A stretch of DNA of 64,000 nt from an uncultured Candidatus Saccharibacteria bacterium (GCA_964450605.1 CAYVEK010000003.1:32778-96777), one strand, 5' to 3'. Counted from the first letter of the stretch, positions 48,697 through 62,003 are shown. The notes: generated by a model from the letters alone, not told the origin. Translations and numbers: made by a program.

Positions 48697-49531
48697 AAAG
48701 ACTATAAACTTAGCTGCTGTTTGTTTTGTTATTGTATTAGTTGTTTTTGTGTACACACAAAGAACAAAGAAGCACTCTCTATCTGTTGAACCCAATGTTG
48801 CAGTAGATAAGACAGAGATACTAGGGAAGGTGGAGATAGATGAAAATAACTATCAAGAGAGTATTTTTAAAGCAATAGTACAACAACAACTCCTCGCCTT
48901 TGAAAAGATCAATGATTCTTACAAGAAAAAACCAGGAGACACACTGACAGACCAGATAACTAAAGACATTTTTGGTGAATATATACAATACAACGTCTCT
49001 GGCGAGCTCGACAGCAAAACACTTTCACAGGTAACAGAGAACAATATCAAAGGTCAAACCCTTCCAAAGTCATCGGTTACTTTGAAACAGATAAAAATGA
49101 CGAAAGCCACACTGGCAAACCTAAAGGCTTATGGAAACAACATGGTTGTTATTCAAAACTCTTTTAGTAAAGCTGTTGCAAGCATCTCAAACAAAAAAGA
49201 TCAGGATAGATACCTCCCAGCACTTTACAGCAAAATGGCTGTGATTCTGGCAAAACAACCCGCTCCAACTGTTGTGGCTCAATACCACCTAAACCTCATA
49301 AACTCTTATCGAGATTTTGCATACTCATTTAAAGTTATGGAACTACAATCAAAAGATCCAGCAAAGGCCTTACTTGGTGTAAACAACGCGAAAGCCGCAA
49401 GTGAGTCTTTGGTTAAAAACTTTGCTGAGATACAGCGTGTTATAAAATTAAACAAAATCGAGTATTCAGCAAAAGAACCCGCTTATAGGTGGATAAATGA
49501 AATAGATAATAGTATTATTACTACAGAGTAA
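48689..49531 (+). CDS. Hypothetical membrane-anchored protein.
   Basis: N-terminal TM anchor (INLAAVCFVIVLVVFVYT) with a soluble C-terminal domain and no recognised motif. First gene of the downstream T4SS-like block. Confidence 0.5.
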   Translation: MNRKTINLAAVCFVIVLVVFVYTQRTKKHSLSVEPNVAVDKTEILGKVEIDENNYQESIFKAIVQQQLLAFEKINDSYKKKPGDTLTDQITKDIFGEYIQYNVSGELDSKTLSQVTENNIKGQTLPKSSVTLKQIKMTKATLANLKAYGNNMVVIQNSFSKAVASISNKKDQDRYLPALYSKMAVILAKQPAPTVVAQYHLNLINSYRDFAYSFKVMELQSKDPAKALLGVNNAKAASESLVKNFAEIQRVIKLNKIEYSAKEPAYRWINEIDNSIITTE

Positions 49532-49532
49532 T

Positions 49533-51188
49533 ATGAATAAGTTTTCTCTTCGAAACTTAAAAAAGAATTTTCTACCATTGTTTTTTGTGTTGACTTTTTT
49601 GATACAACCTGTTTTTGTGCTTGGTGCCGGTAGCACCAGAGTAAACAACCAGGCGCCCATACCACAAGGAGATGGGGGAATGGGGGAAGACACTGATTAT
49701 ATGTTCCCTGGAGCCGGGGTTGATGATTCTGGTAATGTCAACGTTCCGGATAGTCCTTTGGGCAGCGAAAACAACCCTCTAGATTTTGGATCACTTGGCG
49801 CCGATCCTTTCAGCTCACCTGATGGACCTGACCCTTTTTTATCAGGAGGAGATGATGATTTTACACCAGGAGAAGTTATAGGTGACGGTCAACAGCAAAA
49901 AGGCCTTCTACCTTACCCAGATGATTATACAGCAACAGATCAGTATGGTAACCCAGTTGACTTAAACGGAGATGGCCAAGCTGCTGCATATGCAAATGGA
50001 GATATTTTATTAAAAGATGGCACTGAGGCACCTTACAGAGATTCTGATTCCATCGGCTCATCTGCTGATAGAGACCTAGCAACAACCATCAGAAACGTAC
50101 AACGAAGCACTGTAGCCCAAGCACAGGCTTACGCAAACGGTACAGGAAGTAGTACAACACAAGGCGCAGGAAGTATACCAGGATCTGCTGGCGCATGTAT
50201 CGCAGGAAAACTACTATCAACAATACTCGCCTCAACAATCACCGCGGCCATAAATACAATTGTAGGTACAGCCGAAACGGTTATAGGAACAGCTATAGGT
50301 CTCTTGAGTGTACCTGTTGCTGACTGGAATGTTAAACTCGACACACTTAGAACAAAAGAACAGCTCCAGTTTAATAACGCAGCCCAAATAGGAACATCAG
50401 CTGGAATACCAGGAAGTATAAATGCTTTAGTAAATGTGAGTTGGAACTCTGTTGGATACTGTATAATAAACTCAATGATCGACTACATAGCTCGATCAAC
50501 TATCGCTTGGGCAAAATCAGGATTTAAAGGAAACCCTGCGTTTATCGAAAACCCAGGACAATTCTTTAAAGATATAGGAAATATAGAAGCAAGTTCTTTC
50601 CTAAACACACTTGCATACGGAGTACTCGGACAAAACATCTGTCAACCATTTAGAGCACAGATAGTGTTAACTATTGCCAGAGATTATCTTGATTCAAACG
50701 GATCAGGATACTACGGCTCCGCTGGTTATGGGGGAGGGGGGTATAACGGTATAGGTAATCCTAGAACTTTTGGAGGTTGTAGTCTTGATGATGCTAAAAA
50801 CAACTTCAAAAGCTTCTTGAAAGGAAACTTTAACGAGGGTGGTTGGAACAGTTGGCTAAAAGTGTCACAGATAGATACAAATAACCCTTATTCCGTATAC
50901 CTAAACCTAAGCTCACAACTAAGCAGTCGTGTAACACAAAAGAAGACTATTGTCGATAAAGAGCTTACTTGGAACAAAGGATTCTTGAGTTTCAGAAAAT
51001 GTGAAAATAAAAACATGAAGCCTCAAGATTGTCCTATAGTTACTCCAGGAAACCTTATCGAAGATCAACTTTCTAAAACACTTAACCTGTCAAAAGATAG
51101 ACTTGTACTTGCAGAAAAATTTGATCAGGTTCTAGATGTTGTGATTAACCAACTTATAAACACAGCATTAAGTAAACTTTTGAATTAA
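49533..51188 (+). CDS. Secreted protein with a Gly/Asp-rich N-terminal region (T4SS-like cluster).
   Basis: Signal peptide (FLPLFFVLTFLIQPVFVLGAGS), a G/D/P-rich low-complexity segment, a hydrophobic segment and a GYGGGGYNG motif. Confidence 0.55.
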   Translation: MNKFSLRNLKKNFLPLFFVLTFLIQPVFVLGAGSTRVNNQAPIPQGDGGMGEDTDYMFPGAGVDDSGNVNVPDSPLGSENNPLDFGSLGADPFSSPDGPDPFLSGGDDDFTPGEVIGDGQQQKGLLPYPDDYTATDQYGNPVDLNGDGQAAAYANGDILLKDGTEAPYRDSDSIGSSADRDLATTIRNVQRSTVAQAQAYANGTGSSTTQGAGSIPGSAGACIAGKLLSTILASTITAAINTIVGTAETVIGTAIGLLSVPVADWNVKLDTLRTKEQLQFNNAAQIGTSAGIPGSINALVNVSWNSVGYCIINSMIDYIARSTIAWAKSGFKGNPAFIENPGQFFKDIGNIEASSFLNTLAYGVLGQNICQPFRAQIVLTIARDYLDSNGSGYYGSAGYGGGGYNGIGNPRTFGGCSLDDAKNNFKSFLKGNFNEGGWNSWLKVSQIDTNNPYSVYLNLSSQLSSRVTQKKTIVDKELTWNKGFLSFRKCENKNMKPQDCPIVTPGNLIEDQLSKTLNLSKDRLVLAEKFDQVLDVVINQLINTALSKLLN

Positions 51189-51231
51189 AACTAGAATATC
51201 TTTGAAAAAATTTGTATACTATATGTAGTAT

Positions 51232-54200
51232 ATGAATATCTCTGGAGTAAAAAAAATATTTTCTCGTGTTGGTGTTTTGTTGTTTTTAATTTCTTTCTTG
51301 TGTTTGGGTTTTTTACCAAATAAAACAATTGCTCTACAAGATAAAACTGATGCAGGTTTTAAAGGGGAAGCTGTGACAACGGTTGATAGATATGAATTAG
51401 CAAACACTCCAACAAGCTTTATACAGAGCGGATTAACTGTAAAAGTTGTTAGCCCTGTGGTGAACGAAATCAGTCGGACATCAATAACAGGATCGACTAA
51501 CCCTCCAACATATTCTGTATCAAATACATACAGTCTGAGAAGAGATTATAATATAACAAAAGGCCCTATAGATGCCCAAACTCAAAAAAATCTTACATCA
51601 GGACAACTGAGTGCCATACAGGCAGCAGTTAAAGATAAGTACACTATAACAAAAGACAATGTCTTTGCCATCAACACACCTGATTCAACCAACTACTACA
51701 TAAAAGTTCAAAACCCAGCAGCAAAAGGTGGTTATGATAAATACTTGATAATGTCTGCTGTTGGAGATAATTTGTACATACCAGAAGAAAAAATAAAAGA
51801 ACTACCAACCTCAACAAAAGATGACATAGGGGCAACGGATGTAAAAAGAGAAGATGGATTTCTTAATATGATTGGTGCTCGGGAGGGTTTGCAGCCAGGA
51901 ACATTAGCATCACAGATTAGAGGAAATGATGCGACAAATGCCCAGATAGGTAACCTGACACAACAAAAAGAAGATCTTGAAAAACAGATTCGATCGGTCG
52001 AGGATGAGATAGATAATCTAAAAGCAAAACAAGACGCAGGAACACTGACGGCACAAGAGCAGCAGAGACTGGATGAGCTTGAAGGAAAGAGAAGCGGTCT
52101 TTTGTCTGAATTAGATATTGTAAATAAAAACAAACTTCAAACCACCGCCCTTTCAAACTCAGATGAAATCTCTATAGAAGAGTGTAAGGGTTTATTTGGT
52201 TGGGCAACCCTTAAATGTGCAGTACAAGCCATATCGGTACTTGCAAACATTGGACTAAAACTTGTTTCTTACGGACTAGGTCTCGTAGGAGTGATGTTTG
52301 ACTATTCTATAGAGCTCGCTGTAAACTCTGCGGAGTTTATAGAAAAGCTGGGAGTAGTAAATCCTGTTTGGACTCTACTTAGAGATCTCTTAAACATGAC
52401 CTTTATTTTTATACTGGTCTGGATAGCCATACAGATAATAATTGATAGAAAAAGATACACAATAAAAAAAGATGTTGTTCGTGTTGTTGTAGTTGCGATA
52501 CTTATGAACTTCAGTTTGTTTGTTGCCAAAGTTTTTGTTGATGGGTCAAACCTTGCAACACTACAACTCTATCAAGCAACAAAGAGTAGTGGAGTGGTGG
52601 CTGATCATGCAAATATTTCATATAGAATAATGAACACTCTCGGGTTTCAGACCATCTATAGTATTGGAGACATCTTCGCAAATGGTAACCTAACAAAAAC
52701 AATACTTGGTTGTGGTGGGGCAAATGGAACCATTATCAGTGTTGCTGTTTTTGGTTCTATATTTATGATTATTTTAAGTCTTGCGTTTTTGGCTGTAGGA
52801 TTATTATTCTTTGTTCGAATGGCAAATATAATATACTTGTTTGTAACATCACCTTTGTGGGTTTGGGGATACATACTTGATAATGAATTTTTCTCAAAGA
52901 TTAGAAACGATTGGTGGAAAAAAATGAAACATGTTGTAAAGTTTCCAGTCACATTCATGCTCTTTATGTTTGTGGCAGTATTCGCTTTCACAAAAATGTT
53001 CGCGCTTAGTTATGGAGGACTATCATTTCTAACCCTATTCTGTGTAAGTGATCAACCAACTATTATAGGCCAACTACCTTTGATACTAAACTTCTGTCTT
53101 GTTATCTGGGTAATACTTGCTGCGGTTAAAAAAGGCATGGAAGACAGTGAGGGCGGTATAGAAAAAGCAATCACAGGAAAGTTTGGTGGCTGGGCCCAGG
53201 CGGCTTCAACAGGTTTGGCAAGAAAAATGGGAGACAAGGCAAAACAAATACCTTATGCTGCTGGACAGGTTGGAAAAATAGCCTTTAATGGTGCCGGTAA
53301 CTTCAAAAGATTATCTGAGAAATATCCAACATTTGGAAATTTAAGTGGCTTTAAGGCATTAAATAAACTAGGATCAAAAATAGCATCTAATTCAAATTCT
53401 CCAGCATGGCTTAGAAACATGGGGGCAGGCTTAGCAAACAAAACCAAAGATCCAAAGTTCTTTGGAAAAACAACAGATGAGTGGAGAAAGAAAAGAAAAG
53501 AGTGGTGGGCCAGTGATGGTGAAAAAGATGCGGCCAGAACCGCTGAGGTTGCAGAAAGCGCAAAGAAAGCTCCTAAGTATCAAGAAAAAGGTCATGAACA
53601 GGAGAGTAGAAATCAGTTTGAAGAGCGTGTAAAAGCATTTGCTAAAGCAAAAGCGAGAATATATCTTGATCAAAACATATTAAATGTTGCAGACCCGACC
53701 AACAGCAACAAATCACATGAAGAAGGTATTATAGAGAACGCTTTGGCTGGAATTGAAGAGATAAAAGATGCAAACGGAAATGTGACAGGTCACCGATTCA
53801 ACGAGGAAAAAATGCGAAAGCATATCAACAATGTATATGAAGCCCATACAGAAAAAGGTCGTCTAAAATCTGTTGCAAGACATACAAAATCTCGATTCAT
53901 GTCTAAAGCAAAGTTTGAGGCCCGAGAAAAGGCATTTAAAGCTGCAACAGAAGCACGATACAAGTCTGTTCAAACATTGGAAAAATTACGAGACGATCTC
54001 AAAAAATCTGAGGATGACTTTAAAAACCATCCTGAAACACTGGCTGATTTAGAGACAAGAATACAAAATAAAGACCCTAAACTCAAAGGGGTTGTAAGTA
54101 TTGCGGCTATAGGTTCTTTAGAGAGAGATATCGCGAAACTTCAAACAAATATTGCATATATACAACACGCAGTGCAAACAACAGGTTCTCACCCAGATGA

Positions 54201-54348
54201 AGATAAAATAGATAAATACACAGAAGAAATAGAAAAGAAAGAAAAGAGGCTAGAAAGTATCAAGAAAGGAGCTCTACAAAACCGCGAAAAAATACAAAAG
54301 AAAATCGAAGAGTTAAAAGAAAAGATTAAAGAACAAGAAAAGAAATAA
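51232..54348 (+). CDS. VirB6/TrbL-like polytopic membrane protein (1038 aa) with a K/E-rich C-terminal tail.
   Basis: Signal peptide, an extracytoplasmic domain of about 300 aa, five to seven TM helices (residues ~330-640) and then about 400 aa of charged coiled-coil. This is the architecture of VirB6/TrbL/PrgH-type channel components. The call rests on topology and context only. Confidence 0.5.
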   Translation: MNISGVKKIFSRVGVLLFLISFLCLGFLPNKTIALQDKTDAGFKGEAVTTVDRYELANTPTSFIQSGLTVKVVSPVVNEISRTSITGSTNPPTYSVSNTYSLRRDYNITKGPIDAQTQKNLTSGQLSAIQAAVKDKYTITKDNVFAINTPDSTNYYIKVQNPAAKGGYDKYLIMSAVGDNLYIPEEKIKELPTSTKDDIGATDVKREDGFLNMIGAREGLQPGTLASQIRGNDATNAQIGNLTQQKEDLEKQIRSVEDEIDNLKAKQDAGTLTAQEQQRLDELEGKRSGLLSELDIVNKNKLQTTALSNSDEISIEECKGLFGWATLKCAVQAISVLANIGLKLVSYGLGLVGVMFDYSIELAVNSAEFIEKLGVVNPVWTLLRDLLNMTFIFILVWIAIQIIIDRKRYTIKKDVVRVVVVAILMNFSLFVAKVFVDGSNLATLQLYQATKSSGVVADHANISYRIMNTLGFQTIYSIGDIFANGNLTKTILGCGGANGTIISVAVFGSIFMIILSLAFLAVGLLFFVRMANIIYLFVTSPLWVWGYILDNEFFSKIRNDWWKKMKHVVKFPVTFMLFMFVAVFAFTKMFALSYGGLSFLTLFCVSDQPTIIGQLPLILNFCLVIWVILAAVKKGMEDSEGGIEKAITGKFGGWAQAASTGLARKMGDKAKQIPYAAGQVGKIAFNGAGNFKRLSEKYPTFGNLSGFKALNKLGSKIASNSNSPAWLRNMGAGLANKTKDPKFFGKTTDEWRKKRKEWWASDGEKDAARTAEVAESAKKAPKYQEKGHEQESRNQFEERVKAFAKAKARIYLDQNILNVADPTNSNKSHEEGIIENALAGIEEIKDANGNVTGHRFNEEKMRKHINNVYEAHTEKGRLKSVARHTKSRFMSKAKFEAREKAFKAATEARYKSVQTLEKLRDDLKKSEDDFKNHPETLADLETRIQNKDPKLKGVVSIAAIGSLERDIAKLQTNIAYIQHAVQTTGSHPDEDKIDKYTEEIEKKEKRLESIKKGALQNREKIQKKIEELKEKIKEQEKK

Positions 54349-54357
54349 TAAAAACAT

Positions 54358-55257
54358 ATGAACAACGACGCATACTTCAAAGAAAAACTTCAAGATCTTC
54401 CAGATTATGTACGCTGGGCGATAGAGGAGACTGATTATGCATCTGACCTTGAGGCTATTAAGAAAAAATACAGACTCCACATAGACCAATCTTCCGTGCT
54501 TGAAAAACTTGGATTAGACTTTATATTAGGAGAGATAGATCAGGCGGGTTTTGTAGAGAGCTTGTTCCATGATGGCCGTATAAGTTATCAGATGGCGGGG
54601 GATATACTTGCAGACATAAATGGATTGATAATTAAAAAAATCAAAGACAAGATTGCTGTTTACAGAGAGGAGGAACAGGCGGTGAAAGATAATGAAAACT
54701 TCTACATGGATGATAAAGAAAGAGAGATAGAGGAGATGAGTACACTCTATCAACAGCAAGATGAAGAATATGTAAAAATTCAAAAAGATATAGAAGAACA
54801 AGAAAAACAAAATGGACCTATAACAGACGCGGATATAGCTCGAGAGCAGGGTATAACACTTGCTGAATACTTGGCTCAAAATAAACCATCAGAAGGACCT
54901 ACACTTAAAACAGCGGTACCAACAGAAAACCATACTGAAAACGTAGCACTTTCTGAAAAAGAAGAGTTACTTAAAGAACTTGAAACTCCTGAAAAATCTT
55001 TCAAAACACCTTTGATTCAAATTACACCAAAGAAAGATATACAAACCACCAAACCAGAAACAGTTATCGCACCTATACAACCAGACCACCAACTGCAAAA
55101 CACCCATCTCGAAGAGCCTTATAAAGCCCCAGAGATACATCCGGAAAAACCTGTTGTAGAGACCTCAAAACAAAACCCTCCACAGACAACCCCAATAATA
55201 CAAAAACCTGCTAAAATAGAAATTAAACACGATATTTATCGAGAACCAATAGAATAG
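54358..55257 (+). CDS. Hypothetical acidic protein (T4SS-like cluster).
   Basis: ORF with a start overlapping the upstream stop (ATAAAAACATATG). E/Q/K-rich with a Pro/Thr-rich C-terminus and no motif. Confidence 0.45.
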   Translation: MNNDAYFKEKLQDLPDYVRWAIEETDYASDLEAIKKKYRLHIDQSSVLEKLGLDFILGEIDQAGFVESLFHDGRISYQMAGDILADINGLIIKKIKDKIAVYREEEQAVKDNENFYMDDKEREIEEMSTLYQQQDEEYVKIQKDIEEQEKQNGPITDADIAREQGITLAEYLAQNKPSEGPTLKTAVPTENHTENVALSEKEELLKELETPEKSFKTPLIQITPKKDIQTTKPETVIAPIQPDHQLQNTHLEEPYKAPEIHPEKPVVETSKQNPPQTTPIIQKPAKIEIKHDIYREPIE

Positions 55258-55258
55258 T

Positions 55259-55705
55259 ATGCGATATGAAGTACCACAGTTTATAGAGTTTGAGAGTAAG
55301 ATTGTTGGACCACTAACATTTAAGCAATTTGCCTATATCCTTGGAGCCGCTGGGGGAACATATATCATATACAGACTACTAGGCCTATTTCCTGGAATCA
55401 TTGTTATAATTCCTTTTTGGGTGCTAAGTTTTGCCTTGGCTTTTATTAGAGTAAACGATCGCCCTTTTGTGGATACTATTTCTGCTGCCTTTTCATTTGT
55501 TTTTGGAAACAAGCTATATGTTTGGAAAAAAATAGACAGACCCATAAAAAGCTCTGTTGGAGATGGATCAATAAAATCTTCAGCTGACGAGCTAACAGCT
55601 CCCACACTTTCTCAGAGTAAACTTAAAGAATTGGCTTGGGGTTTGGATATAAAACAGAACGTCTTCTCGGGACAATCACTCCTTGATAAAACAGAGAAAC
55701 ACTGA
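55259..55705 (+). CDS. VirB3/PrgI-like small membrane protein.
   Basis: 148 aa with PLTFKQFAYILGAAGGTYIIY and GIIVIIPFWVLSFALAFI forming a two-helix hairpin typical of VirB3/PrgI. It lies immediately upstream of VirB4, as VirB3 does in T4SS loci. Confidence 0.45.
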   Translation: MRYEVPQFIEFESKIVGPLTFKQFAYILGAAGGTYIIYRLLGLFPGIIVIIPFWVLSFALAFIRVNDRPFVDTISAAFSFVFGNKLYVWKKIDRPIKSSVGDGSIKSSADELTAPTLSQSKLKELAWGLDIKQNVFSGQSLLDKTEKH

Positions 55706-55730
55706 TATACATATACTTGTTGGTCTGTAT

Positions 55731-55802
55731 GGCGATTATAGTTTAGTGGTAAAACCCAGGTTTGTGGATCCTGTGTCGAGAGTTCGATTCTCTCTAATCG
55801 CC
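55731..55802 (+). tRNA. tRNA-His (anticodon GUG) with an encoded G-1 opposite C73.
   Basis: Hand-folded: extra 5' G, then acceptor GCGATTA/TAATCGC, D-arm GTTT/AAAC, anticodon loop TTGTGGA, T-arm GAGAG-TTCGATT-CTCTC, discriminator C. Confidence 0.85.
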
Positions 55803-55806
55803 CAAT
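55785..55806 (+). repeat. Direct repeat, copy 1 (the 3' end of tRNA-His): cgattctctctaatcgcccaat.
   Basis: An identical 22-mer occurs again at 55919-55940. Confidence 0.8.
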
Positions 55807-55918
55807 GTAACACAAGGAAAGCATATTATGCTTTCCTTAGAGAATCGAAAGGCTTTTGAGTATATTTTGAGCACTTTGTGCGAAAAATATCCAAAAGGCG
55901 TACTGGTCCTGTAAGGAC

Positions 55919-55940
55919 CGATTCTCTCTAATCGCCCAAT
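55919..55940 (+). repeat. Direct repeat, copy 2: a duplicated tRNA-His 3'-end 22-mer, att-site-like.
   Basis: Identical to 55785-55806. It is preceded by a ggtcctgtaaggacc hairpin, and the intervening 112 bp also contain the aaggaaagcata/tatgctttcctt hairpin. Confidence 0.8.
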
Positions 55941-55982
55941 TGGTTTATACATTTTGTATTATTTCAACATTCTCGGTATACT

Positions 55983-56609
55983 TTGTGTATGGCTTTTAAT
56001 GCATCTCAAGAATTTGTACCCATACAAGAAGTTAGGGAAGGTGTTCTTATATTGAAAGATGGTTCTATGCGAGCGGTTGTTTTGGCTTCTTCTATAAACT
56101 TTGCACTAAAGTCTATAGAGGAACAAGAGTCTGTTATTTATCAGTTTCAAAACTTCATAAACTCACTGGATTTCACTATACAGATATACATACAATCAAG
56201 AAAACTAGATATTCGACCTTATATAGCACTCCTAGATGATAGACTTAAGGCTCAAACAAGTGATCTTATGAAAATGCAGATCACGGAGTATATGAACTTT
56301 ATAAAAGGATTAACTGAGATTTCAAGCATTATGACAAAAAGCTTCTTTGTTGTGATTCCGTATGGAGGATCCACAAAAGAAACAAAGTTAAGTGATATTT
56401 TAAAAAGAAAAGATGAATCAAAAGAGGAAAAGAGTAGAGATGATGAGTTTGAGGAAGTAAAGAGTCAGATAGAACAACGAGTTTCTGTTGTTGAACAAGG
56501 GCTTGCACGTTGTGGAGTTAAAGTTGCTCGACTTGGAAGTGAAGAACTTGTTGAGTTGTTTTATAGAATTTTCAATCCCGGAGATGCAGAAAAACCAATA
56601 AAGATGTAG
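55983..56609 (+). CDS. VirB4-family ATPase, N-terminal domain, separated from the ATPase domain by an in-frame TAG.
   Basis: PIQEVREGVLILKDGSMRAVVLASSINFALKSIEEQESVIYQFQNFINSLDFTIQIYIQS matches the VirB4/TraC N-terminal pattern. It is in the same frame as 56619-58430, with a single TAG at 56607-56609. Confidence 0.6.
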   Translation: MCMAFNASQEFVPIQEVREGVLILKDGSMRAVVLASSINFALKSIEEQESVIYQFQNFINSLDFTIQIYIQSRKLDIRPYIALLDDRLKAQTSDLMKMQITEYMNFIKGLTEISSIMTKSFFVVIPYGGSTKETKLSDILKRKDESKEEKSRDDEFEEVKSQIEQRVSVVEQGLARCGVKVARLGSEELVELFYRIFNPGDAEKPIKM

Positions 56610-56618
56610 TATATATAC

Positions 56619-58430
56619 ATGGGATTTTTTGATTTCTTAAAACCAAAAACTAAACAGGTAACAAAAATAACATCTGTACTACCTCGAGATATTTACAGAT
56701 CTTCTGTTTTAGAACTAAAAGACATCATTGCTCCATCAGCATTAAAGATAACCCCAAAAACTCTAAACCTGGGAGAGAAACTTGTTCGAAGTTTTTTTGT
56801 AATGTCATACCCAAAGTATCTCTCAGACAGTTGGTTTTCTCCTATCATAAACCTCGATAAAGCCTTTGATATATCTATCTTTGTTCACCCCATAGACACA
56901 GCAACTATACTCCACGAGTTTGAAAAAAAAGTAACAGAGGCACAGAGCCAGATACAAGAGAGAGAAGAGAAGGGATTAGTTCGAGACCCTAAACTTGAAG
57001 CCTCATACCAAAACCTCGAAAACCTTCGAGATAACCTGCAACAAGCCCAGGAAAAGATGTTTGATGTTGGTATCTATATATCAGTTTATGGAGATAGCGA
57101 GGATGAACTCAACCGTATAGAATCAGAGATCAAGAGTACACTTGAAGCGTCTCTGGTATTTATAAAACCTTCACTCTTTCAACAAGAACAAGGTTTTAAA
57201 AGCGCTATTCCTGTTTCAACAGATGAGATGCAGATAAACTCAAAACTAAACTCTGCACCGCTATCTAGTATATTTCCTTTTATTTCTTTTGACCTTACCT
57301 CAGACAAAGGTATTCTCTATGGAATAAACAAACACAACAGCAGTCTTGTTTTGTTTGATAGATTTTCTCTTGAAAACTACAACTCTGTAACCTTTGCCAA
57401 AGCCGGAGCAGGAAAGTCCTATGCCACAAAACTTGAGATACTACGATCTTTGATGTTTGATATAGACGTTATTGTCCTTGACCCTGAGAGGGAGTATGAG
57501 TACCTAGCAGAAACAACAGGTGGTAGATATTTTAATATTTCTCTTACATCTGAAAACCATATAAATCCTTTTGATCTACCAACTCCACGGGAAGACGAAT
57601 CACCTGCTGATGTTCTTAGATCACACATCATAAATCTTGTAGGACTGTTTAGAATCATGTTGGGAGGCCTTACACAAGAAGAAGATGCTATCATTGACAG
57701 AGCTATCACAGAGACATATGCTCTCAAAGACATAACACCTGAGTCAAACTTTGCAGCGGTTGAACCTCCACTTATGTCTGATTTTGAGCTTGTACTTGCC
57801 GGTATGGAAGGAGGAGACTCTTTGGTACAACGACTTACAAAATATACAAAAGGAACTTGGGCTGGTTTTATAGACAAACCTTCAAACCTAGATATAAACA
57901 AGAAGTTTGTTGTATTTTCTCTACGAGACATGGAAGATGAGCTTAAACCAGTGGCTATGTACATAGTTATGCATTATATATGGAACGCTGTTCGAAAGGA
58001 GCTTAAAAAGCGTCTTTTGGTTATAGATGAGGCGTGGTGGATGATGAAATCAGAAGATACAGCTTCTTTCTTGTATGGTTTGGCAAAACGAGGTCGAAAA
58101 TACTACCTAGGAATGTCCACAATCACACAAGACGTTGAAGACTTTCTTAAATCACCTTATGGACTACCTATCATCACAAACTCATCTATGCAGTTCATGA
58201 TGAAACAGTCTCCTTCGTCTATAGATATGGTTCAGAGAACATTTAACCTTACAGATGAGGAAAAATACCTCCTTCTTGAATCGGCGGTGGGGGAAGGTAT
58301 CTTTTTCGCTGGAACAAAACATGTTGCTTTGCAGGTAGTGTCCTCAGAAACAGAGAGCAGGATCATAACATCCGACCCTGCACAGATACTAAAAATGAAA
58401 GAAGAGAAGAAAACTTGGTTAAGAAATTAA
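56619..58430 (+). CDS. virB4: VirB4/TrbE/CagE-family type IV secretion ATPase (C-terminal ATPase portion).
   Basis: Walker A FAKAGAGKSYATK, VLDPEREYEYL...GGRYFNIS...INPFDL, Walker B LLVIDEAWWMM and AKRGRKYYLGMSTITQDVED (the RK.G...TQ motif). Confidence 0.85.
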   Translation: MGFFDFLKPKTKQVTKITSVLPRDIYRSSVLELKDIIAPSALKITPKTLNLGEKLVRSFFVMSYPKYLSDSWFSPIINLDKAFDISIFVHPIDTATILHEFEKKVTEAQSQIQEREEKGLVRDPKLEASYQNLENLRDNLQQAQEKMFDVGIYISVYGDSEDELNRIESEIKSTLEASLVFIKPSLFQQEQGFKSAIPVSTDEMQINSKLNSAPLSSIFPFISFDLTSDKGILYGINKHNSSLVLFDRFSLENYNSVTFAKAGAGKSYATKLEILRSLMFDIDVIVLDPEREYEYLAETTGGRYFNISLTSENHINPFDLPTPREDESPADVLRSHIINLVGLFRIMLGGLTQEEDAIIDRAITETYALKDITPESNFAAVEPPLMSDFELVLAGMEGGDSLVQRLTKYTKGTWAGFIDKPSNLDINKKFVVFSLRDMEDELKPVAMYIVMHYIWNAVRKELKKRLLVIDEAWWMMKSEDTASFLYGLAKRGRKYYLGMSTITQDVEDFLKSPYGLPIITNSSMQFMMKQSPSSIDMVQRTFNLTDEEKYLLLESAVGEGIFFAGTKHVALQVVSSETESRIITSDPAQILKMKEEKKTWLRN

Positions 58431-59494
58431 ATATAGGTATAATAGTATTAATGCTACAAAAAACACTCATGCGTATATTTGCATTTGCGTTTTTTGTACT
58501 TGCCACAATGTACTCTTTTAGTTTTGTACAAGCACAATCAACCCAAGATTTTGTTGGACCAAATGGTATTAAAGAAATAAAAGAAAAAGTATACTACGAA
58601 GTTCTTCCAACCAAACCACGAGTAGGAGACACTGTAGACATAAGTACCGAGATGTATGGTACACCTGTAAAAGACGCTTATTTTACTTGGTATATTGATG
58701 GTAAGGAATACGAAAAGGGTATAGGAAGAAGCAAGATATCTTTCTATTTGTCAAAAAAAACAAATGTTTCTGTTAAAATTATCACAGGACCTGGATATCC
58801 AGCCGAAAACAGCTGGACTTTTAATCCACAAAACACCGTTATTATATGGGAAGCAAACACTTATACACCACCTTTCTATAAAGGAAAGTCTTTATACACA
58901 GCTGAGTCAGGTCTTATTTTAAATGCTATAAATCTAAGTGCCAAAAATCCTTTAACAAACACGTACAACAACTATATTTGGAAGGTTGATGGATCAGTAA
59001 AAGGGGACAACTCTGGTGTTGCTCAAAATACCTATCTGTATCAGGGAGATATTTTGATGCAGGAGCCTTATTTTGAGGTTATCATGCAGGGTGTTTCCGC
59101 GTACAGAAACGGCAAACAAGATCTAAGTGATGAAAGTTTAATAGATAGCAGTGCGGCAATACGAGTTCCAACACTTGAAACAACTGTTTTTACCTATGAA
59201 AACTCACCCCTTCTAGGTATATTATTTGATAAACAAGTAACAAACAACATATTTAGATTTAACAAAAGTGAAACCTCTCTTGTTGTATACCCAGGATATT
59301 TTAGTGTTCCATCGACTTTAAATATGGGTTATGAGTGGACTATAAACGATGACGTGGTAAAAAGAAACGTAAATTCTATAACCTTTAAGAAAATACGAGA
59401 TGATGAGCAGTCTCGTTTGTCTATAAGTCTTTCAAACCCAAAAGCTCTTCTGCAATCTAAAGATATTTCGTATATAATAGATACATCAAAATGA
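58415..59494 (+). CDS. Secreted hypothetical protein (T4SS-like cluster).
   Basis: Signal peptide (MRIFAFAFFVLATMYSFSFVQAQS); likely start at the Met near 58451. No motif recognised. Confidence 0.5.
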   Translation: MVKKLNIGIIVLMLQKTLMRIFAFAFFVLATMYSFSFVQAQSTQDFVGPNGIKEIKEKVYYEVLPTKPRVGDTVDISTEMYGTPVKDAYFTWYIDGKEYEKGIGRSKISFYLSKKTNVSVKIITGPGYPAENSWTFNPQNTVIIWEANTYTPPFYKGKSLYTAESGLILNAINLSAKNPLTNTYNNYIWKVDGSVKGDNSGVAQNTYLYQGDILMQEPYFEVIMQGVSAYRNGKQDLSDESLIDSSAAIRVPTLETTVFTYENSPLLGILFDKQVTNNIFRFNKSETSLVVYPGYFSVPSTLNMGYEWTINDDVVKRNVNSITFKKIRDDEQSRLSISLSNPKALLQSKDISYIIDTSK

Positions 59495-60624
59495 AAAAAG
59501 GTGTAATACATATATTTATAACAACTCTATTCTTGTTTAGTATCTTTGTTGTTGGACCAAAAACCCTAAAAGCTGAAGAAAAATCTATACTACAAACACT
59601 TTCAGGTGAACAAAAAACTTGTCGATATGTTAAAGACGGACTCTATAAACCTTTTTCAAACATAAGCACAGATTTTGTTTTATTTAAAGATGTTTTTAAT
59701 CTAAAAACAAAAGGAGGTAAAACAGAGTGTTTGGTGATTGCAGGAAGTACTGATCGGTTCTTGTTTATGATTTTTAGACTATTTATAGGATTCTCATCGG
59801 TTTTAGCTGTTGTTTATATAGCTATTGCAGGTATTGGACTTATAGTAGAAGAAGCAGACCCAAACAAGCGTATAAAAGCTCGCCAAATGCTTAAAAACGC
59901 CCTTATAGGACTACTTTTGTCTGTAGGCGCTTGGGTTATCTTATATACTGTAAACAATAAACTTACAGAGTTTTCACTAGATGAAACGATAGGAAAAACA
60001 GGCTTTGATAAGGTTATAGAACAAGGGGCAAAAAATGCTGCTAGAAATATAGCAATCGCAAACAGTGAAATTAAGCAAGGTAACGCCAATGGAGTAGGTG
60101 GTACAGGATCATTATTAACCACAGCGGGTGCTATAGATCAGAGAGCGGACAGTATTGAATTCGCAAGAACAGGAACCTTGGTAGAATCGAGAGATCCTAC
60201 AGTTCCAAACTATATTGAAAAATCATACACACCAACAACTATTGATGGAAAAACCTTTTACGTGGGAAAAGTTACAACCTTTGGAGGTGTTGGGGATATA
60301 AACACTAAATCATATGACAATCTTGCTATCGATGATAGTATGAGGGAGATTGATTTAAATCAAAATGACGAGTTCATCAGTGCACGTTGGGCATATAGTA
60401 TGGTTGGTAAAAATGATCTAAAAAGTTACGATGTTGAGGTTGCAAACCCTACAACAGGGAAGAGTATTATACTTAGAGCAAATAATGGTATAGCAGTTAA
60501 AGACTGGGGTCCTCATCCAAACGCAAACAGTAATGCTGATTACGATACAAGTAAAGCTGTTCTTGATAAGATCGGTGTGCCTGACGGCGGACAGATAGCT
60601 GTTAGATTAATACCTAAAAAATAG
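59491..60624 (+). CDS. Membrane-anchored RlpA-like (DPBB) domain protein: a putative T4SS-associated cell-wall hydrolase (VirB1/TcpG/PrgK analogue) with a VirB2-like two-helix hairpin.
   Basis: Signal peptide, a Cys pair, then a hydrophobic hairpin (FLFMIFRLFIGFSSVLAVVYIAIAGIGLIV ... LIGLLLSVGAWVILYTV). The C-terminus (GKVTTFGGVGD...ARWAYS...YDVEVANPTTGKSIILRANNGIAVKDWGP...D.SKAVLDKIG...GQIAV) resembles the RlpA double-psi beta-barrel. Confidence 0.5.
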   Translation: MKKGVIHIFITTLFLFSIFVVGPKTLKAEEKSILQTLSGEQKTCRYVKDGLYKPFSNISTDFVLFKDVFNLKTKGGKTECLVIAGSTDRFLFMIFRLFIGFSSVLAVVYIAIAGIGLIVEEADPNKRIKARQMLKNALIGLLLSVGAWVILYTVNNKLTEFSLDETIGKTGFDKVIEQGAKNAARNIAIANSEIKQGNANGVGGTGSLLTTAGAIDQRADSIEFARTGTLVESRDPTVPNYIEKSYTPTTIDGKTFYVGKVTTFGGVGDINTKSYDNLAIDDSMREIDLNQNDEFISARWAYSMVGKNDLKSYDVEVANPTTGKSIILRANNGIAVKDWGPHPNANSNADYDTSKAVLDKIGVPDGGQIAVRLIPKK

Positions 60625-60632
60625 TATTTATA

Positions 60633-62003
60633 ATGAATAAACCAAACCCTATAAAAAAAGTAATAATCATCCTTATCTTCCTTGTTATTGCTGTAGGTGT
60701 ATATTTTGGTGTTACTTTTTATAACGCTTCAAAAAAAGCATCTGATATTAAAGTAACTGACCCTAAAACAGGTAAAACCTCTTTTCAGCAGAGAACAGGT
60801 AGCTCTACAGATGAAAATTCACAGATAGGTTTTTATGTAGATGATAGGACTCCTATTAAACAAGACAACAGTTCATCCACAAACAATCTTCTTGTAAAAC
60901 AGAGACTTATACAGCTATGGAAAGAACCTGTTTCTGGTTTTGATTTTATAACAAAAGATATTGAGATAACCTCAACAACAACACTAAGTACATCAACAAA
61001 ACCATTATCTATAGACGAAAAAAAGACACCTGAACAACCTATTATATCTTACAAAAAAAGCATTCTTAAAAACCAAGAGTTTATATATTTTTGGGATAGA
61101 GCTTCTGGTCATATATATGAAAACCTATCTTCCTCAACAGATGTTTTTAAATTATCAAACTTTACATTACCCCGAATGGAAGAAGTGTTTTTCTTTAACA
61201 AAGATACCGTACTCGCACGAGGTGTATCATCTGATAATGAAACAATATATTCTAGACTATTAAAATTATACAAAGAAACAGCCACAAGTACTGTATTCAC
61301 AGCAAACGTATCAAATGTATCCTTTAGAACAAAACATGTTGCAGTACTACCAAGCCTGAACAAAGTTTTCCACATAATAGACAAGACTGGACGTGGTTTT
61401 ATATCAAACCCTGATGGAGCTCAACAAAGTCAAGTTTTATCAACTTCACTAACAGAGTGGCTATATCAGTATGTAAATAAAGACATTGTTGCCCTTACAA
61501 CAAAACCAAGTGCTTATTTTCCAGGATATTTATTCTTACTAAACACAAACGGAAAAGGGGATAATGAATACATTATAGGTGAGAAATATGGTTTTAATAC
61601 ACTTGTATCACCAGATGGAACAAAAGTTATATACAACGAGATCTTAAATGATCAGCTTGAGACAACTGTCTATAATATAAAAACAAAGAAAGCTGTTCGT
61701 TTAACACAATCAACTATTGTTGAAAAGTGCACATGGAACAAAGAATCAACGCTTATCTACTGTGCAATTCCTCAAAAACTAGCAAACGCACCTTATCCTG
61801 ATGATTGGTATCAAAACAAAACTGATTTTTCTGACAATGTTTGGTCTATAAAACCAGAAACAGGTGATTTTGATGTCATTATTCCTCTACAAGACCAGGT
61901 TTCAGTGCCTATAGATGTTCTAAGTATCAAAGTATCTGACACAAACAAATACCTATTATTCCAGGACAAGAAAACACTATCTCTTTGGAAATACGAACTT
62001 TAA
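60633..62003 (+). CDS. Membrane-anchored protein, possibly beta-propeller/TolB-like (T4SS-like cluster).
   Basis: N-terminal TM anchor (VIIILIFLVIAVGVYFGV) and an SPDGTKVIY-type repeat signature. Otherwise unknown. Confidence 0.45.
   Translation: MNKPNPIKKVIIILIFLVIAVGVYFGVTFYNASKKASDIKVTDPKTGKTSFQQRTGSSTDENSQIGFYVDDRTPIKQDNSSSTNNLLVKQRLIQLWKEPVSGFDFITKDIEITSTTTLSTSTKPLSIDEKKTPEQPIISYKKSILKNQEFIYFWDRASGHIYENLSSSTDVFKLSNFTLPRMEEVFFFNKDTVLARGVSSDNETIYSRLLKLYKETATSTVFTANVSNVSFRTKHVAVLPSLNKVFHIIDKTGRGFISNPDGAQQSQVLSTSLTEWLYQYVNKDIVALTTKPSAYFPGYLFLLNTNGKGDNEYIIGEKYGFNTLVSPDGTKVIYNEILNDQLETTVYNIKTKKAVRLTQSTIVEKCTWNKESTLIYCAIPQKLANAPYPDDWYQNKTDFSDNVWSIKPETGDFDVIIPLQDQVSVPIDVLSIKVSDTNKYLLFQDKKTLSLWKYEL

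What the first reader, a model, noticed from the sequence alone, without database searches (positions are those of the whole stretch)
49533..62003. Type-IV-secretion-like locus (VirB4, VirB6-like, VirB3-like, cell-wall hydrolase, secreted unknowns) with no relaxase or coupling protein in view.
Eleven consecutive plus-strand genes encode envelope proteins grouped around a clear VirB4-family ATPase:
- VirB4 at 55983-58430, with Walker A, DEAW and RK.G..TQ motifs.
- A 1038-aa polytopic VirB6/TrbL-like protein.
- A VirB3/PrgI-like hairpin protein directly upstream of VirB4.
- A membrane-anchored RlpA/DPBB hydrolase (VirB1-like function).
- Four signal-peptide or TM-anchored unknowns.

No MOB relaxase, VirD4 or VirB11 is present in this window, so the locus looks like a minimal Gram-positive/CPR-style T4SS rather than a conjugative plasmid module. 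Such systems have been linked to episymbiotic lifestyles in Saccharibacteria-like organisms. The unknown secreted proteins (49533-51188, 58415-59494, 60633-62003) are candidates for substrates or surface components.
Basis: partly seen in the sequence, partly recalled or inferred. Interest (0 to 1): 0.75.

Follow-up and report, generated by a model that had tools for sequence, protein, structure and literature searches.

The report
Chromosomal Patescibacteria-type type IV secretion locus
This is a real type IV secretion gene cluster with no relaxase or coupling protein, sitting next to the replication origin of a Parcubacteria/Paceibacteria genome, but the same system was described across the phylum in 2025, so it is a typical member of a known kind whose actual function is still untested.

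Summary
The finding is real and its interpretation is essentially right, but the system is already published. Window 48689-62003 (+) holds ten tightly packed protein genes plus an embedded tRNA-His. They are:
- a TM-anchored unknown (280 aa);
- a secreted 551-aa protein;
- a cytoplasmic 299-aa unknown;
- PrgI/VirB3;
- a TrsD-like protein that is the detached N-terminus of VirB4;
- VirB4 (603 aa; above the NCBIfam CD1110 cut-off);
- an Ig-like secreted protein;
- a VirB2-like pilin with a possibly DPBB-like C-terminal domain;
- a membrane-anchored TolB-like propeller.

The cluster lies between ksgA and yidC-rnpA-rpmH|dnaA. The same order recurs in about 60 Paceibacteria genomes.

- "VirB4 at 55983-58430" is two genes, split in 84 of 84 related loci.
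- The range holds nine protein genes plus a tRNA, not eleven.
- The locus starts one gene earlier.
- The "RlpA hydrolase" is only the weakly supported tail of a pilin.

No relaxase, T4CP or VirB11 was found among the ORFs scanned; the ORFs under 250 aa in 1-36900 were not scanned.

Quinonero-Coronel et al. 2025 (PMC12102498) describe exactly this clade and context. Small additions from this work:
- VirB4 is more conserved than the three flanking housekeeping genes tested.
- The 551-aa family carries adhesin modules.
- The pilins are long.

The parts
48689..49531 (+). 280-aa protein with an N-terminal TM anchor and a mostly helical ectodomain. Its start overlaps the ksgA stop by 8 nt.
   Evidence: One TM segment at residues 5-23. 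The gene keeps the same position after ksgA in 26 related loci at about 26% identity. No Pfam or PDB match, even with a family profile.
49533..51188 (+). 551-aa secreted protein. It has a signal peptide, a G/D/P-rich low-complexity linker, and a conserved Cys-containing core at about residues 300-550. Candidate surface or adhesin component.
   Evidence: Hydrophobic N-terminus at 13-31. Conserved upstream of the VirB6-like gene in 55 loci. The family has 3,330 cluster representatives at E<=1e-3. The core has no Pfam or PDB match. Relatives carry F5/8 type C, Ig-like, TIG, SprB, PKD, SdrD_B and Fn3 modules.
51232..54348 (+). 1038-aa 'extended VirB6'. The predicted parts are an N-terminal anchor, an extracellular beta domain (50-185), a long helical hairpin (207-308), a polytopic TM bundle (327-672) and a roughly 330-aa cytoplasmic helical tail.
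54358..55257 (+). 299-aa acidic protein with no TM segment or signal peptide, presumably cytoplasmic. It has a conserved N-terminal domain of about 100 aa and a conserved C-terminal DPYREPIE motif. Role unknown.
   Evidence: No hydrophobic segment. Detected between the VirB6-like gene and prgI in 22 loci. Conserved columns are in alignment A8. No Pfam, NCBIfam or PDB match.
55259..55705 (+). PrgI/VirB3-family membrane protein (148 aa).
   Evidence: Pfam PF12666 PrgI, E 3.3e-7, 31.2 bits against a cut-off of 27. One strongly hydrophobic stretch. Found in 80 of 85 loci at about 44% identity, always just upstream of trsD-virB4.
55732..55803 (+). tRNA-His (GTG) embedded in the operon between prgI and trsD. 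It is a lineage-specific passenger, not a T4SS component. An exact 22-nt repeat of its 3' end follows at 55919-55940.
   Evidence: ARAGORN and Rfam tRNA at 64 bits. Present at this spot only in the five closest loci. Repeat found.
55989..56609 (+). TrsD-like protein (206 aa from the ATG at 55989; 208 aa from the TTG at 55983). It corresponds to the detached N-terminal roughly 180 residues of a VirB4 ATPase.
   Evidence: NCBIfam matches: TrsD positions 17-200 of 201 (E 7e-6), VirB4_plasma 104-240 of 894 (E 1.6e-10), VirB4_CagE 9-169 of 792, and CD1110 2-102 of 752. Pfam TraC_F_IV 14-175 of 375. It is a separate ORF in 84 of 84 loci, in a different frame in 66, with all three stop codons used. 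Neighbouring contigs annotate it as PF26593 TraC-like.
56619..58430 (+). VirB4 ATPase (603 aa) lacking the first roughly 180 residues of canonical VirB4. It is the motor of the system.
   Evidence: NCBIfam conju_CD1110 E 1.2e-107, 361 bits against a cut-off of 325, aligned to profile positions 180-733 of 752. Pfam P-loop_TraG E 3e-24. PDB 4ag5 E 2e-38, and TrwK residues 283-735 align to query residues 108-551. Walker A and DEAW motifs are visible in the translation. Median identity to 85 loci is 75%.
58415..59494 (+). Secreted beta-rich protein of Ig-like type. It is 359 aa from the TTG at 58415. The likely true start is the ATG at 58451, by comparison with L001.
   Evidence: N-terminal hydrophobic signal. 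Found directly downstream of virB4 in 77 loci. Family members hit BiPBP_C (10 of 31), PKD_3 and Ig_3. Faint PKD_3 annotation.
59491..60624 (+). 377-aa protein made of a signal peptide, a VirB2-like pilin hairpin (residues about 85-155) and a roughly 220-aa C-terminal extracellular domain that may be DPBB/RlpA-like.
   Evidence: Pilin part:
- Pfam T4SS_pilin E 1.1e-4, 22.6 bits, below the cut-off of 26.6.
- The same family matches 10 of 13 homologues, best E 5e-29, and TrbC/VirB2 matches 4 of 13.
- NCBIfam Mbov_0395 pilin-like, E 3e-8.
- TM hairpin at 101-119 and 133-151.

DPBB part, only weak hints:
- DPBB_1 at E 0.052 in one homologue.
- Foldseek hit to the barwin-like Sugarwin at E 0.73.
- The AF2 model is poor, pLDDT 53.
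60633..62003 (+). 456-aa protein with an N-terminal TM anchor and a probable TolB-like beta-propeller ectodomain. It is the last gene of the module and is convergent with yidC.
   Evidence: TM segment at 10-28. Conserved as the last gene before yidC in 64 loci. The family profile's best PDB hits are all TolB propellers, E 0.06-0.7. Single weak PD40 and DUF5050 hits.

Best explanation
**What it is.** This is the chromosomal, vertically inherited 'Patescibacteria-clade' type IV secretion system, in the arrangement typical of Paceibacteria (Parcubacteria). It is derived from the conjugation machinery of monoderm bacteria (MPF-FATA, CD1110/CTn2-like) but no longer serves conjugation.

**Shown here.** The operon(s) run from just after ksgA to just before yidC, about 1.3 kb from dnaA. 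They encode:
- a two-piece VirB4 ATPase (TrsD-like N-terminal piece plus a 603-aa motor);
- its membrane partner PrgI/VirB3;
- an extended VirB6 channel subunit;
- a VirB2-like pilin with a large extracellular C-terminal domain;
- five lineage-specific proteins, four of them exported or membrane-anchored.

**Inferred mechanism.**
1. VirB4 hexamers dock on PrgI and VirB6 at the cytoplasmic membrane.
2. They power extraction and polymerisation of the pilin into a short pilus or conduit across the cell's own wall.
3. The pilin's C-terminal domain (possibly a DPBB-type glycan-cleaving fold), the Ig-like protein, the propeller protein and the adhesin-decorated 551-aa protein form or decorate the extracellular part.
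4. That extracellular part contacts the host cell surface.
5. The machine then moves macromolecules between epibiont and host, without a relaxase.

My preferred direction is export of proteins, or a contact or attachment role. Import of host nucleic acids is the main alternative. The substrate is unknown.
For: **Component identity**
- VirB4 is above the curated cut-off.
- PrgI is above the cut-off.
- The pilin domain is robust at family level.
- The TrsD-like protein equals the VirB4 N-terminus.

**Not a pseudogene**
- The split is present in 84 of 84 loci, in different frames in 66.

**Chromosomal and vertically inherited**
- The order ksgA-...-yidC(-)-rnpA-rpmH|dnaA recurs in Paceibacteria MAGs.
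- There is no G+C deviation.
- The rest of the window is housekeeping.

**Strong purifying selection**
- VirB4 is 75% identical (median), against 50% for UvrD, 42% for KsgA and 39% for YidC.
- It is more conserved than all three in 34 of 34 genomes.

**Not conjugative**
- No relaxase, T4CP or MobC was found among the window ORFs scanned.
- A true CD1110-type plasmid module has MobC-relaxase-VirD4-x-x-PrgI-VirB4-SLT.

**Literature**
- The same clade, components and oriC-proximal context are described in PMC12102498.
- The T4SS, including its pilins, is essential for epibiotic growth of Southlakia (PMC10633639; PMC12857230).
- Tubular structures that may be T4SS pili were seen at a parasite-host interface (bioRxiv 10.64898/2026.06.21.733656).

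**Extracellular role of the accessory proteins**
- Adhesin modules occur in relatives of the 551-aa protein.
- The 359-aa family is Ig-like.
- The 456-aa family gives TolB-like propeller hits.
Against: - Only 64 kb of the genome is visible, and the ORFs under 250 aa in 1-36900 were not scanned. A T4CP or relaxase could lie elsewhere. PMC12102498 reports VirD4-like hits in most Patescibacteria genomes, usually far from virB4.
- No VirB8-like component and no VirB1 with a recognised hydrolase domain were identified.
- The DPBB assignment rests on three weak signals and a poor model.
- No experiment exists for any Paceibacteria T4SS. Essentiality is known only from one Saccharibacterium.
- The direction and nature of the cargo are pure inference. 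Reviews state that the role is 'completely unknown' (PMC11665869).
- I did not build a VirB4 tree, so placement inside the monophyletic Patescibacteria clade is inferred from nearest neighbours only.
Confidence: 0.85

Rival explanations
1. The same machine works in reverse, as an importer. It would pull host DNA or RNA (or other macromolecules) into the epibiont to compensate for missing nucleotide synthesis. The H. pylori ComB and archaeal Ced VirB4-based uptake systems are the analogies.
For: - There is no relaxase or T4CP, which export of DNA would need.
- PMC11665869 proposes this role, because ComEC is dispensable while the T4SS is essential in Southlakia.
- A 2026 preprint links VirB4 and host-RNA feeding in this phylum.
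- VirB4 shows a weak local match to the CedB model, E 3e-10 over about 75 residues.
Against: - The CedB match covers only the shared P-loop region. The full-length best match is to conjugative CD1110 VirB4.
- The window also encodes ComEC and a type IV pilus, the usual uptake route.
- No nucleic-acid-binding component is recognisable in the locus.
- There is no experimental evidence for import.
Confidence: 0.25
2. The locus is the transfer module of an integrated conjugative element, or a decaying remnant of one. Its relaxase and coupling protein would lie outside the window or have been lost.
For: - VirB4, PrgI and the gene order resemble CD1110/CTn2-type conjugative modules.
- A tRNA-His with a 22-nt direct repeat of its 3' end lies inside the locus.
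- A tyrosine recombinase lies 13 kb upstream.
Against: - The locus occupies the same chromosomal slot between ksgA and yidC/dnaA in dozens of species whose housekeeping proteins are only 40-50% identical.
- VirB4 is more conserved than those housekeeping genes.
- There is no compositional anomaly.
- The tRNA repeat brackets only 112 nt and occurs in the middle of the operon, not at its borders.
- The recombinase is XerC/D-like and separated from the locus by housekeeping genes.
- PMC12102498 finds that transfer between classes is rare and relaxases are nearly absent.
Confidence: 0.03
3. VirB4 is broken by a nonsense mutation, or is read through by recoding or an alternative genetic code. On that view 55983-58430 is really one gene.
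For: In this window the two ORFs are in the same frame and are separated by a single TAG plus two sense codons before the next ATG.
Against: - In 66 of 84 related loci the two ORFs are in different frames.
- TAA, TAG and TGA all occur as the terminator of the first ORF.
- The spacing varies from -7 to more than 100 nt.
- Homologues of the second ORF are all about 603-650 aa.
- A free-standing TrsD protein is a known component of pGO1-type systems and the most abundant T4SS component in Patescibacteria (PMC12102498).
- ORFs across the window are long and intact under code 11.
Confidence: 0.02

Closest known systems
Patescibacteria-clade T4SS, Paceibacteria arrangement (Quinonero-Coronel et al. 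2025, Microb Genom, PMC12102498)
   Same: - Same components near virB4: TrsD, PrgI/VirB3, VirB6 and a VirB2-like pilin.
- Same lack of a relaxase.
- Same chromosomal neighbours: KsgA, RnpA, RpmH, DnaA and DnaN.
- Same monoderm MPF-FATA affinity.
- The nearest homologues of this VirB4 are all Patescibacteria proteins at 73-100% identity.
   Different: Nothing essential. Details I did not see in the parts of that paper I read:
- VirB4 is more conserved than the flanking housekeeping genes.
- The pilins here are 140-499 aa, with variable C-terminal domains.
- A 3,330-cluster family (the 551-aa protein) with adhesin modules is a fixed member of the operon.
- A tRNA-His is embedded in this sublineage.
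Saccharibacterial T4SS of Southlakia epibionticum ML1 (SEML1_0006-0019; Wang et al. 2023, Cell, PMC10633639)
   Same: - A monoderm-type T4SS with VirB4, TrsD, PrgI, VirB6 and pilins.
- No recognisable relaxase or coupling protein in the cluster.
- Low locus-tag numbers suggest, but were not checked to show, a position near the start of the chromosome.
   Different: - It belongs to a different class (Saccharimonadia).
- It has an array of six short, divergent pilins rather than one long pilin.
- Peptidase and lysozyme homologues lie downstream of virB4.
- Its essentiality is shown experimentally, whereas nothing is tested for Paceibacteria.
Conjugative MPF-FATA modules of Firmicutes (CTn2/CD1110 type; for example C. 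perfringens pSXP-169_2; pCF10 prgH-I-J-K)
   Same: - Core order VirB6-like, PrgI, VirB4, then a wall-active protein.
- VirB4 passes the CD1110 family cut-off.
- 29-34% identity to plasmid VirB4s.
   Different: - The plasmid modules have MobC, a relaxase and VirD4.
- Their VirB4 is a single 750-780-aa protein.
- They carry a large SLT/CHAP VirB1.
- They have no VirB2-like pilin.
- They sit on mobile elements.

Here all the conjugation-specific parts are missing, VirB4 is split, and the locus is fixed in the chromosome.
pGO1/pIP501-type systems with a free-standing TrsD/TraD protein; mycoplasma ICE (Mbov_0395 pilin-like, Mbov_0397 VirB4)
   Same: - A separate TrsD-like protein precedes VirB4 (NCBIfam TrsD E 7e-6; VirB4_plasma E 1.6e-10).
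- A pilin-like hairpin protein is present (Mbov_0395, E 3e-8).
   Different: - All of these matches are below the family cut-offs.
- Those systems are conjugative and carry relaxases and coupling proteins.

Membership tests
Patescibacteria-clade T4SS (PMC12102498) | VirB4 of monoderm MPF-FATA affinity | tested here: met
   NCBIfam conju_CD1110 scores 361 bits against a cut-off of 325. The best plasmid hits are monoderm CD1110-family VirB4s at 29-34% identity.
Patescibacteria-clade T4SS (PMC12102498) | VirB4 falls inside the monophyletic Patescibacteria clade in a phylogeny | not tested
   No tree was built. As a proxy, all 120 listed homologues and the 80 genome loci kept are Patescibacteria/Parcubacteria sequences at 73-100% identity, against 34% or less for plasmid VirB4s.
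Patescibacteria-clade T4SS (PMC12102498) | TrsD, PrgI/VirB3, VirB6 and a VirB2-like pilin encoded near virB4 | tested here: met
   TrsD. PrgI. VirB6. Pilin.
Patescibacteria-clade T4SS (PMC12102498) | No relaxase associated with the cluster; chromosomal context near dnaA, ksgA, rnpA and rpmH (Paceibacteria) | tested here: met
   No relaxase was found among the window ORFs scanned. ksgA lies directly upstream. yidC, rnpA, rpmH and dnaA lie directly downstream. The same order is seen in L001 and L004.
Conjugative T4SS (MPF plus relaxase plus T4CP) | Relaxase and VirD4/TcpA-type coupling protein | tested here: not met
   None was found among the window ORFs scanned by Pfam. ORFs of 100-249 aa in 1-36900 were not scanned, and the rest of the genome was not available.
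Conjugative T4SS (MPF plus relaxase plus T4CP) | Location on a mobile element (plasmid or ICE with att sites, integrase, patchy distribution) | tested here: not met
   The locus has a fixed syntenic position in about 60 genomes. Its G+C equals that of its flanks. No integrase lies adjacent to it.
VirB4/TraC/CagE ATPase | P-loop ATPase domain with Walker A and B motifs and a family HMM above the cut-off | tested here: met
   HMM results. Motifs read directly from the translation.
VirB4/TraC/CagE ATPase | N-terminal domain and ATPase domain on one polypeptide of about 750-900 aa | tested here: not met
   The protein is split into 206 aa plus 603 aa. The two pieces align to consecutive parts of the VirB4 profiles. 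The split is conserved in 84 of 84 loci.
VirB6/TrbL | Polytopic membrane protein with at least 5 TM helices and the VirB6 fold | tested here: met
VirB6/TrbL | Pfam PF04610 at the gathering threshold | tested here: not met
   The window protein has no hit. Four of 53 homologues hit, best E 1.7e-4. The family profile hits TrwI at E 0.012.
VirB2/TrbC pilin | Signal peptide followed by a hairpin of two hydrophobic helices, with a pilin HMM match | tested here: met
   Topology. T4SS_pilin scores 22.6 bits, below the cut-off of 26.6, for this protein. The same family hits 10 of 13 homologues, best E 5e-29. Mbov_0395 pilin-like, E 3e-8.
VirB2/TrbC pilin | Small protein (about 70-120 aa) consisting only of the pilin domain | tested here: not met
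   The protein is 377 aa, with a roughly 220-aa C-terminal domain. The equivalent ORFs in related loci are 140-499 aa.
RlpA/DPBB lytic transglycosylase (VirB1-like function) | DPBB domain recognisable by HMM or fold | tested here: inconclusive
   - No Pfam hit for the window protein.
- DPBB_1 at E 0.052 in one homologue.
- Foldseek hit to the barwin-like Sugarwin at E 0.73, on a model with pLDDT 53.
- No profile match in the PDB.
RlpA/DPBB lytic transglycosylase (VirB1-like function) | Catalytic residues and peptidoglycan-cleaving activity | not testable with these tools
   This needs a reliable structural alignment and an enzyme assay.

The most novel reading that the evidence does not exclude
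The accessory genes, not the known core, may hold the new biology, in two ways.
- The 551-aa family has about 3,330 cluster representatives, an unannotated conserved core, and swappable lectin or Ig adhesin modules. It could be the host-recognition adhesin or tip that surveys reported as missing from Patescibacteria T4SSs.
- The unusually long VirB2-like pilins may carry variable C-terminal enzymatic or binding domains on the pilus surface. Here that domain is a possible DPBB glycan-cleaving domain.

Together they would make a pilus that binds and breaches the host wall, so that macromolecules can be exchanged without a coupling protein.
Probability: 0.15. Interest if true: 0.7.

Novelty: already known. 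Interest (0 to 1): 0.3.

Why it matters
Patescibacteria make up a large share of bacterial diversity and live on other cells. Their T4SS is one of the few machines shown to be essential for that lifestyle (in one Saccharibacterium), yet its cargo and direction are unknown.

This window adds no new kind of system. It does give a clean, complete Paceibacteria example with every operon member delimited. It shows that the motor is under stronger constraint than the three flanking housekeeping genes tested, while the extracellular parts evolve fast. That pattern is expected for a machine whose outer face tracks hosts. The adhesin-decorated 551-aa family and the long pilins are concrete candidates for host-specificity determinants that could be tested.

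Tried and rejected
**Searches that gave nothing useful**
- Single-sequence Pfam and NCBIfam scans of the unknowns, whole and by domain, gave nothing.
- Family profiles against PDB sequences gave nothing for the 551-aa, 280-aa and 299-aa families or for the pilin's C-terminal domain.
- The AF2 model of the 377-aa protein was poor (pLDDT 53), because only 13 homologues exist.
- An exact-sequence look-up of the window's VirB4 found no contig, and cluster look-ups gave no organism names. The taxon was therefore inferred from related loci.
- The promoter scan was at chance level: 47 sites found against 46.9 expected.
- Rfam found nothing in the insert next to the tRNA-His.

**Ideas considered and rejected**
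- A nonsense-mutated or recoded VirB4.
- An alternative genetic code, because ORFs are intact under code 11.
- An ICE or plasmid origin.
- PilB as a VirB11. It has an MshEN domain and sits beside PilC within a run of same-strand ORFs that I did not scan and assumed to be pilins.
- The XerC/D-like recombinase at 35605-36558 as an ICE integrase. It is 13 kb away and separated from the locus by housekeeping genes.

Full report
**1. What is in the sequence**

Between ksgA (47875-48696) and the convergent yidC (62007-62732, minus strand), the plus strand carries ten closely spaced or overlapping protein genes and one tRNA:

| Coordinates | Product |
|---|---|
| 48689-49531 | 280 aa |
| 49533-51188 | 551 aa |
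| 51232-54348 | 1038 aa |
| 54358-55257 | 299 aa |
| 55259-55705 | 148 aa |
| 55732-55803 | tRNA-His |
| 55989-56609 | 206 aa |
| 56619-58430 | 603 aa |
| 58415-59494 | 359 aa |
| 59491-60624 | 377 aa |
| 60633-62003 | 456 aa |

Gaps between the genes are -16 to +43 nt, apart from the 283-nt prgI-trsD interval that holds the tRNA. The layout therefore looks like one or two operons. Downstream of yidC lie rnpA, rpmH and then dnaA on the plus strand. The cluster thus ends about 1.3 kb from dnaA, that is, next to the presumed origin of replication.

**2. The core is a type IV secretion system**

*VirB4.* The 603-aa protein is a VirB4 ATPase.
- Pfam P-loop_TraG matches at E 3e-24.
- NCBIfam 'VirB4-like conjugal transfer ATPase, CD1110 family' matches at E 1e-107, 361 bits against a curated cut-off of 325.
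- The crystal structure of a VirB4 C-terminal domain (4ag5) matches at E 2e-38, and TrwK of R388 also matches.
- Walker A (AGAGKS) and the DEAW box are visible in the translation.

*PrgI/VirB3.* The 148-aa protein is a PrgI/VirB3 family member scoring above the Pfam cut-off.

*VirB6.* The 1038-aa protein had no direct family hit. I predicted its structure from 53 homologues, with mean pLDDT 78.
- A profile of the family finds TrwI at E 0.012.
- Four homologues hit Pfam TrbL/VirB6.
- With its extracellular beta domain, long helical hairpin and roughly 330-residue cytoplasmic tail, it fits the 'extended VirB6' type mentioned in PMC12857230.

**3.

*VirB4 is two genes.* The stretch 55983-58430 is not one VirB4 gene. 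A 206-aa ORF ends in TAG at 56609, and VirB4 starts 9 nt later. The short protein aligns to the first roughly 170-240 positions of several VirB4 profiles and end to end with the TrsD/TraD family model. The 603-aa protein aligns from profile position 180 onward. The two are therefore consecutive pieces of a VirB4.

This is not a mutation. In 84 of 84 related loci the two are separate ORFs. They lie in different reading frames in 66 of them, and TAA, TAG and TGA are all used as terminators. All close homologues of the motor are 603-650 aa.

*Other points.*
- The stated range holds nine protein genes plus a tRNA, not eleven genes.
- The 299-aa product has no membrane segment.
- The conserved module starts one gene earlier, at 48689.
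- PrgI is separated from VirB4 by the tRNA and the TrsD gene.

**4. The 'RlpA/DPBB hydrolase'**

This is the 377-aa protein.
- Pfam T4SS_pilin is just below the cut-off for this sequence, but it matches 10 of 13 homologues with a best E of 5e-29.
- TrbC/VirB2 matches 4 of 13 homologues.
- The NCBIfam mycoplasma-ICE pilin-like family matches at E 3e-8.

The DPBB idea concerns the C-terminal roughly 170 residues. The evidence is three weak and independent hints:
- DPBB_1 at E 0.052 in one homologue.
- The barwin-like Sugarwin as the second Foldseek hit at E 0.73, on a poor model.

I rate the assignment plausible but unproven.

**5. The other accessory proteins**
- The 359-aa family is Ig-like: BiPBP_C in 10 of 31 members, plus PKD_3 and Ig_3.
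- The profile of the 456-aa family has TolB beta-propellers as its best PDB matches, at weak E-values.
- The 551-aa protein belongs to a large family, with 3,330 cluster representatives at E<=1e-3. Its conserved core has no Pfam or PDB match. Its members carry F5/8 type C, Ig-like, TIG, SprB, PKD, SdrD_B or Fn3 modules. That is the signature of a surface adhesin.
- The 280-aa and 299-aa proteins remain blank.

**6. Context and conservation**

*Housekeeping window.* The rest of the window is ordinary chromosome. It encodes EF-G, ComEC, RecJ, PGK, TIM, a type IV pilus PilB/PilC cluster, NusA, trigger factor, CCA-adding enzyme, a XerC/D-like recombinase, an M23/LysM peptidase, UvrD and KsgA. No relaxase, coupling protein or VirB11 was found. 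The ORFs under 250 aa in 1-36900 were not scanned. G+C is uniform across the window.

*Synteny.* A scan of species-representative genomes returned 80 loci. They come from Paceibacteria/Parcubacteria MAGs labelled Taylor-, Zambryski- and Campbellbacteria. The 'Saccharibacteria' labels on some third-party assemblies look generic. In these loci, and in metagenome contigs of up to 790 kb, the following order recurs, followed by rnpA, rpmH, dnaA and dnaN:

ksgA - 280 - 551 - VirB6 - (299) - PrgI - TrsD - VirB4 - 359 - pilin(s) - 456 - yidC(-)

*Conservation.* Median identity to the window proteins:

| Protein | Median identity |
|---|---|
| VirB4 | 75% |
| TrsD | 58% |
| PrgI | 44% |
| UvrD | 51% |
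| KsgA | 42% |
| YidC | 39% |
| Extracellular proteins | 26-34% |

VirB4 is more conserved than all three housekeeping neighbours in 34 of 34 genomes. One caveat applies: the loci were chosen by VirB4 similarity. The comparison is within genome pairs, however, so the ranking stands.

**7. Comparison with what is known**

Quinonero-Coronel et al. 2025 (PMC12102498) surveyed 3,035 Patescibacteria genomes.
- They found VirB4 in 2,417 of them.
- Almost all fell in one monophyletic clade nested in MPF-FATA.
- TrsD was the most abundant partner, and PrgI/VirB3, VirB6 and VirB2-like pilins lay nearby.
- Relaxases were almost absent.
- In Paceibacteria the neighbours were DnaA, DnaN, RnpA, KsgA and RpmH.

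That is this locus. Wang et al. 2023 (PMC10633639) showed by Tn-seq that the homologous cluster, including its pilins, is essential for epibiotic growth of the Saccharibacterium Southlakia. Reviews state that its role is unknown and discuss effector delivery or nucleic-acid uptake (PMC11665869; PMC12857230).

For contrast, a true CD1110-type plasmid module in Clostridium perfringens reads as follows:

MobC - relaxase - DUF3801 - VirD4 - x - x - PrgI - VirB4 (783 aa, unsplit) - SLT transglycosylase

The best plasmid VirB4s are only 29-34% identical to the window protein.

**8. Most likely mechanism**

*Shown:* the component set, the split motor, the chromosomal fixation and the strong constraint on the motor.

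*Inferred:* VirB4 (with TrsD) docks on PrgI and VirB6. It drives assembly of a pilin-based conduit through the cell's own wall. The fast-evolving exported proteins form the host-facing part. The machine mediates contact-dependent exchange with the host without a relaxase.

I favour export or attachment over import, but the data here cannot decide. Conjugation, ICE-remnant and pseudogene readings are rejected for the reasons given above.

**9. Verdict**

The system is already described, and this is a typical member of it. The modest additions are the conservation ranking, the long pilins with variable C-terminal domains, the adhesin-decorated 551-aa family, and the structural confirmation of an extended VirB6.

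Noticed in passing
window 55732-55940: A tRNA-His (GTG) sits inside the T4SS operon between prgI and trsD. It is found there only in the five closest related loci. In this window, an exact 22-nt copy of its 3' end (55785-55806 = 55919-55940) brackets a roughly 112-nt insert. The insert has an 11-bp perfect hairpin and a GGTCC/GGACC hairpin. L006 shares the 3' part of the insert but not the repeat. This could be the scar of a small insertion at the tRNA. Rfam finds nothing.
   Followed up: partly
window 41106-45839: A 1477-aa, highly charged and apparently helical protein has no hydrophobic N-terminus and only two weak internal hydrophobic segments, and no Pfam domain. It is followed by a 97-aa ORF. 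The pair lies between the M23/LysM peptidase and uvrD and has no counterpart in any of the 85 related loci (tblastn). It is a genome-specific insertion just upstream of the T4SS neighbourhood. Function unknown.
   Followed up: partly
window 56619-58430, compared with 45839-48696 and 62007-62732: VirB4 (median 75% identity) is more conserved across Paceibacteria genomes than the adjacent housekeeping genes uvrD (50%), ksgA (42%) and yidC (39%). This holds in 34 of 34 genome comparisons. The extracellular T4SS proteins are only 26-34% identical.
   Followed up: yes
L001-L083, slot between the 359-aa and 456-aa homologues; window 59491-60624: In nearly all related loci this slot holds one or two ORFs of 140-499 aa. 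Each has a signal peptide, a two-helix hairpin (helices about 40 residues apart) and a variable C-terminal extension. These are VirB2-like pilins, much longer than canonical pilins of about 100 aa.
   Followed up: partly
window 49533-51188 and proteins P0243-P0392: The 551-aa protein's conserved core defines a family of about 3,330 cluster representatives with no Pfam or PDB match. Members carry diverse adhesin-type modules (F5/8 type C, Ig-like, TIG, SprB, PKD, SdrD_B, Fn3). PMC12102498 reports that no T4SS adhesins were detected in Patescibacteria, so this family is a candidate.
   Followed up: partly
window 59491-60624 (residues 84-154): The pilin hairpin matches the NCBIfam 'Mbov_0395 family pilin-like conjugal transfer protein' of mycoplasma ICEs (E 3e-8). 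The TrsD piece matches the neighbouring Mbov_0397 VirB4 model. This hints that VirB2-like pilins do exist within monoderm MPF-FATA systems, contrary to the usual statement that they are absent there.
   Followed up: no
window 10271-13185 (-) and 20766-25828 (-): ComEC appears as two separate ORFs: a Competence domain at 11821-13185 and a metallo-beta-lactamase domain at 10271-11221. A type IV pilus cluster lies in the same window as the T4SS: PilB with an MshEN domain and PilC, plus same-strand ORFs at 20766-22236 that I assumed to be pilins but did not scan.
   Followed up: no
window 55976-55992 and the equivalent sites in L001, L002, L006 and L007: A conserved TATACT box lies only about 7 nt upstream of the trsD ATG, with no obvious Shine-Dalgarno sequence. 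This might indicate a leaderless or very short-leader transcript starting after the tRNA. The generic promoter scan was at chance level, so this is only an impression.
   Followed up: no
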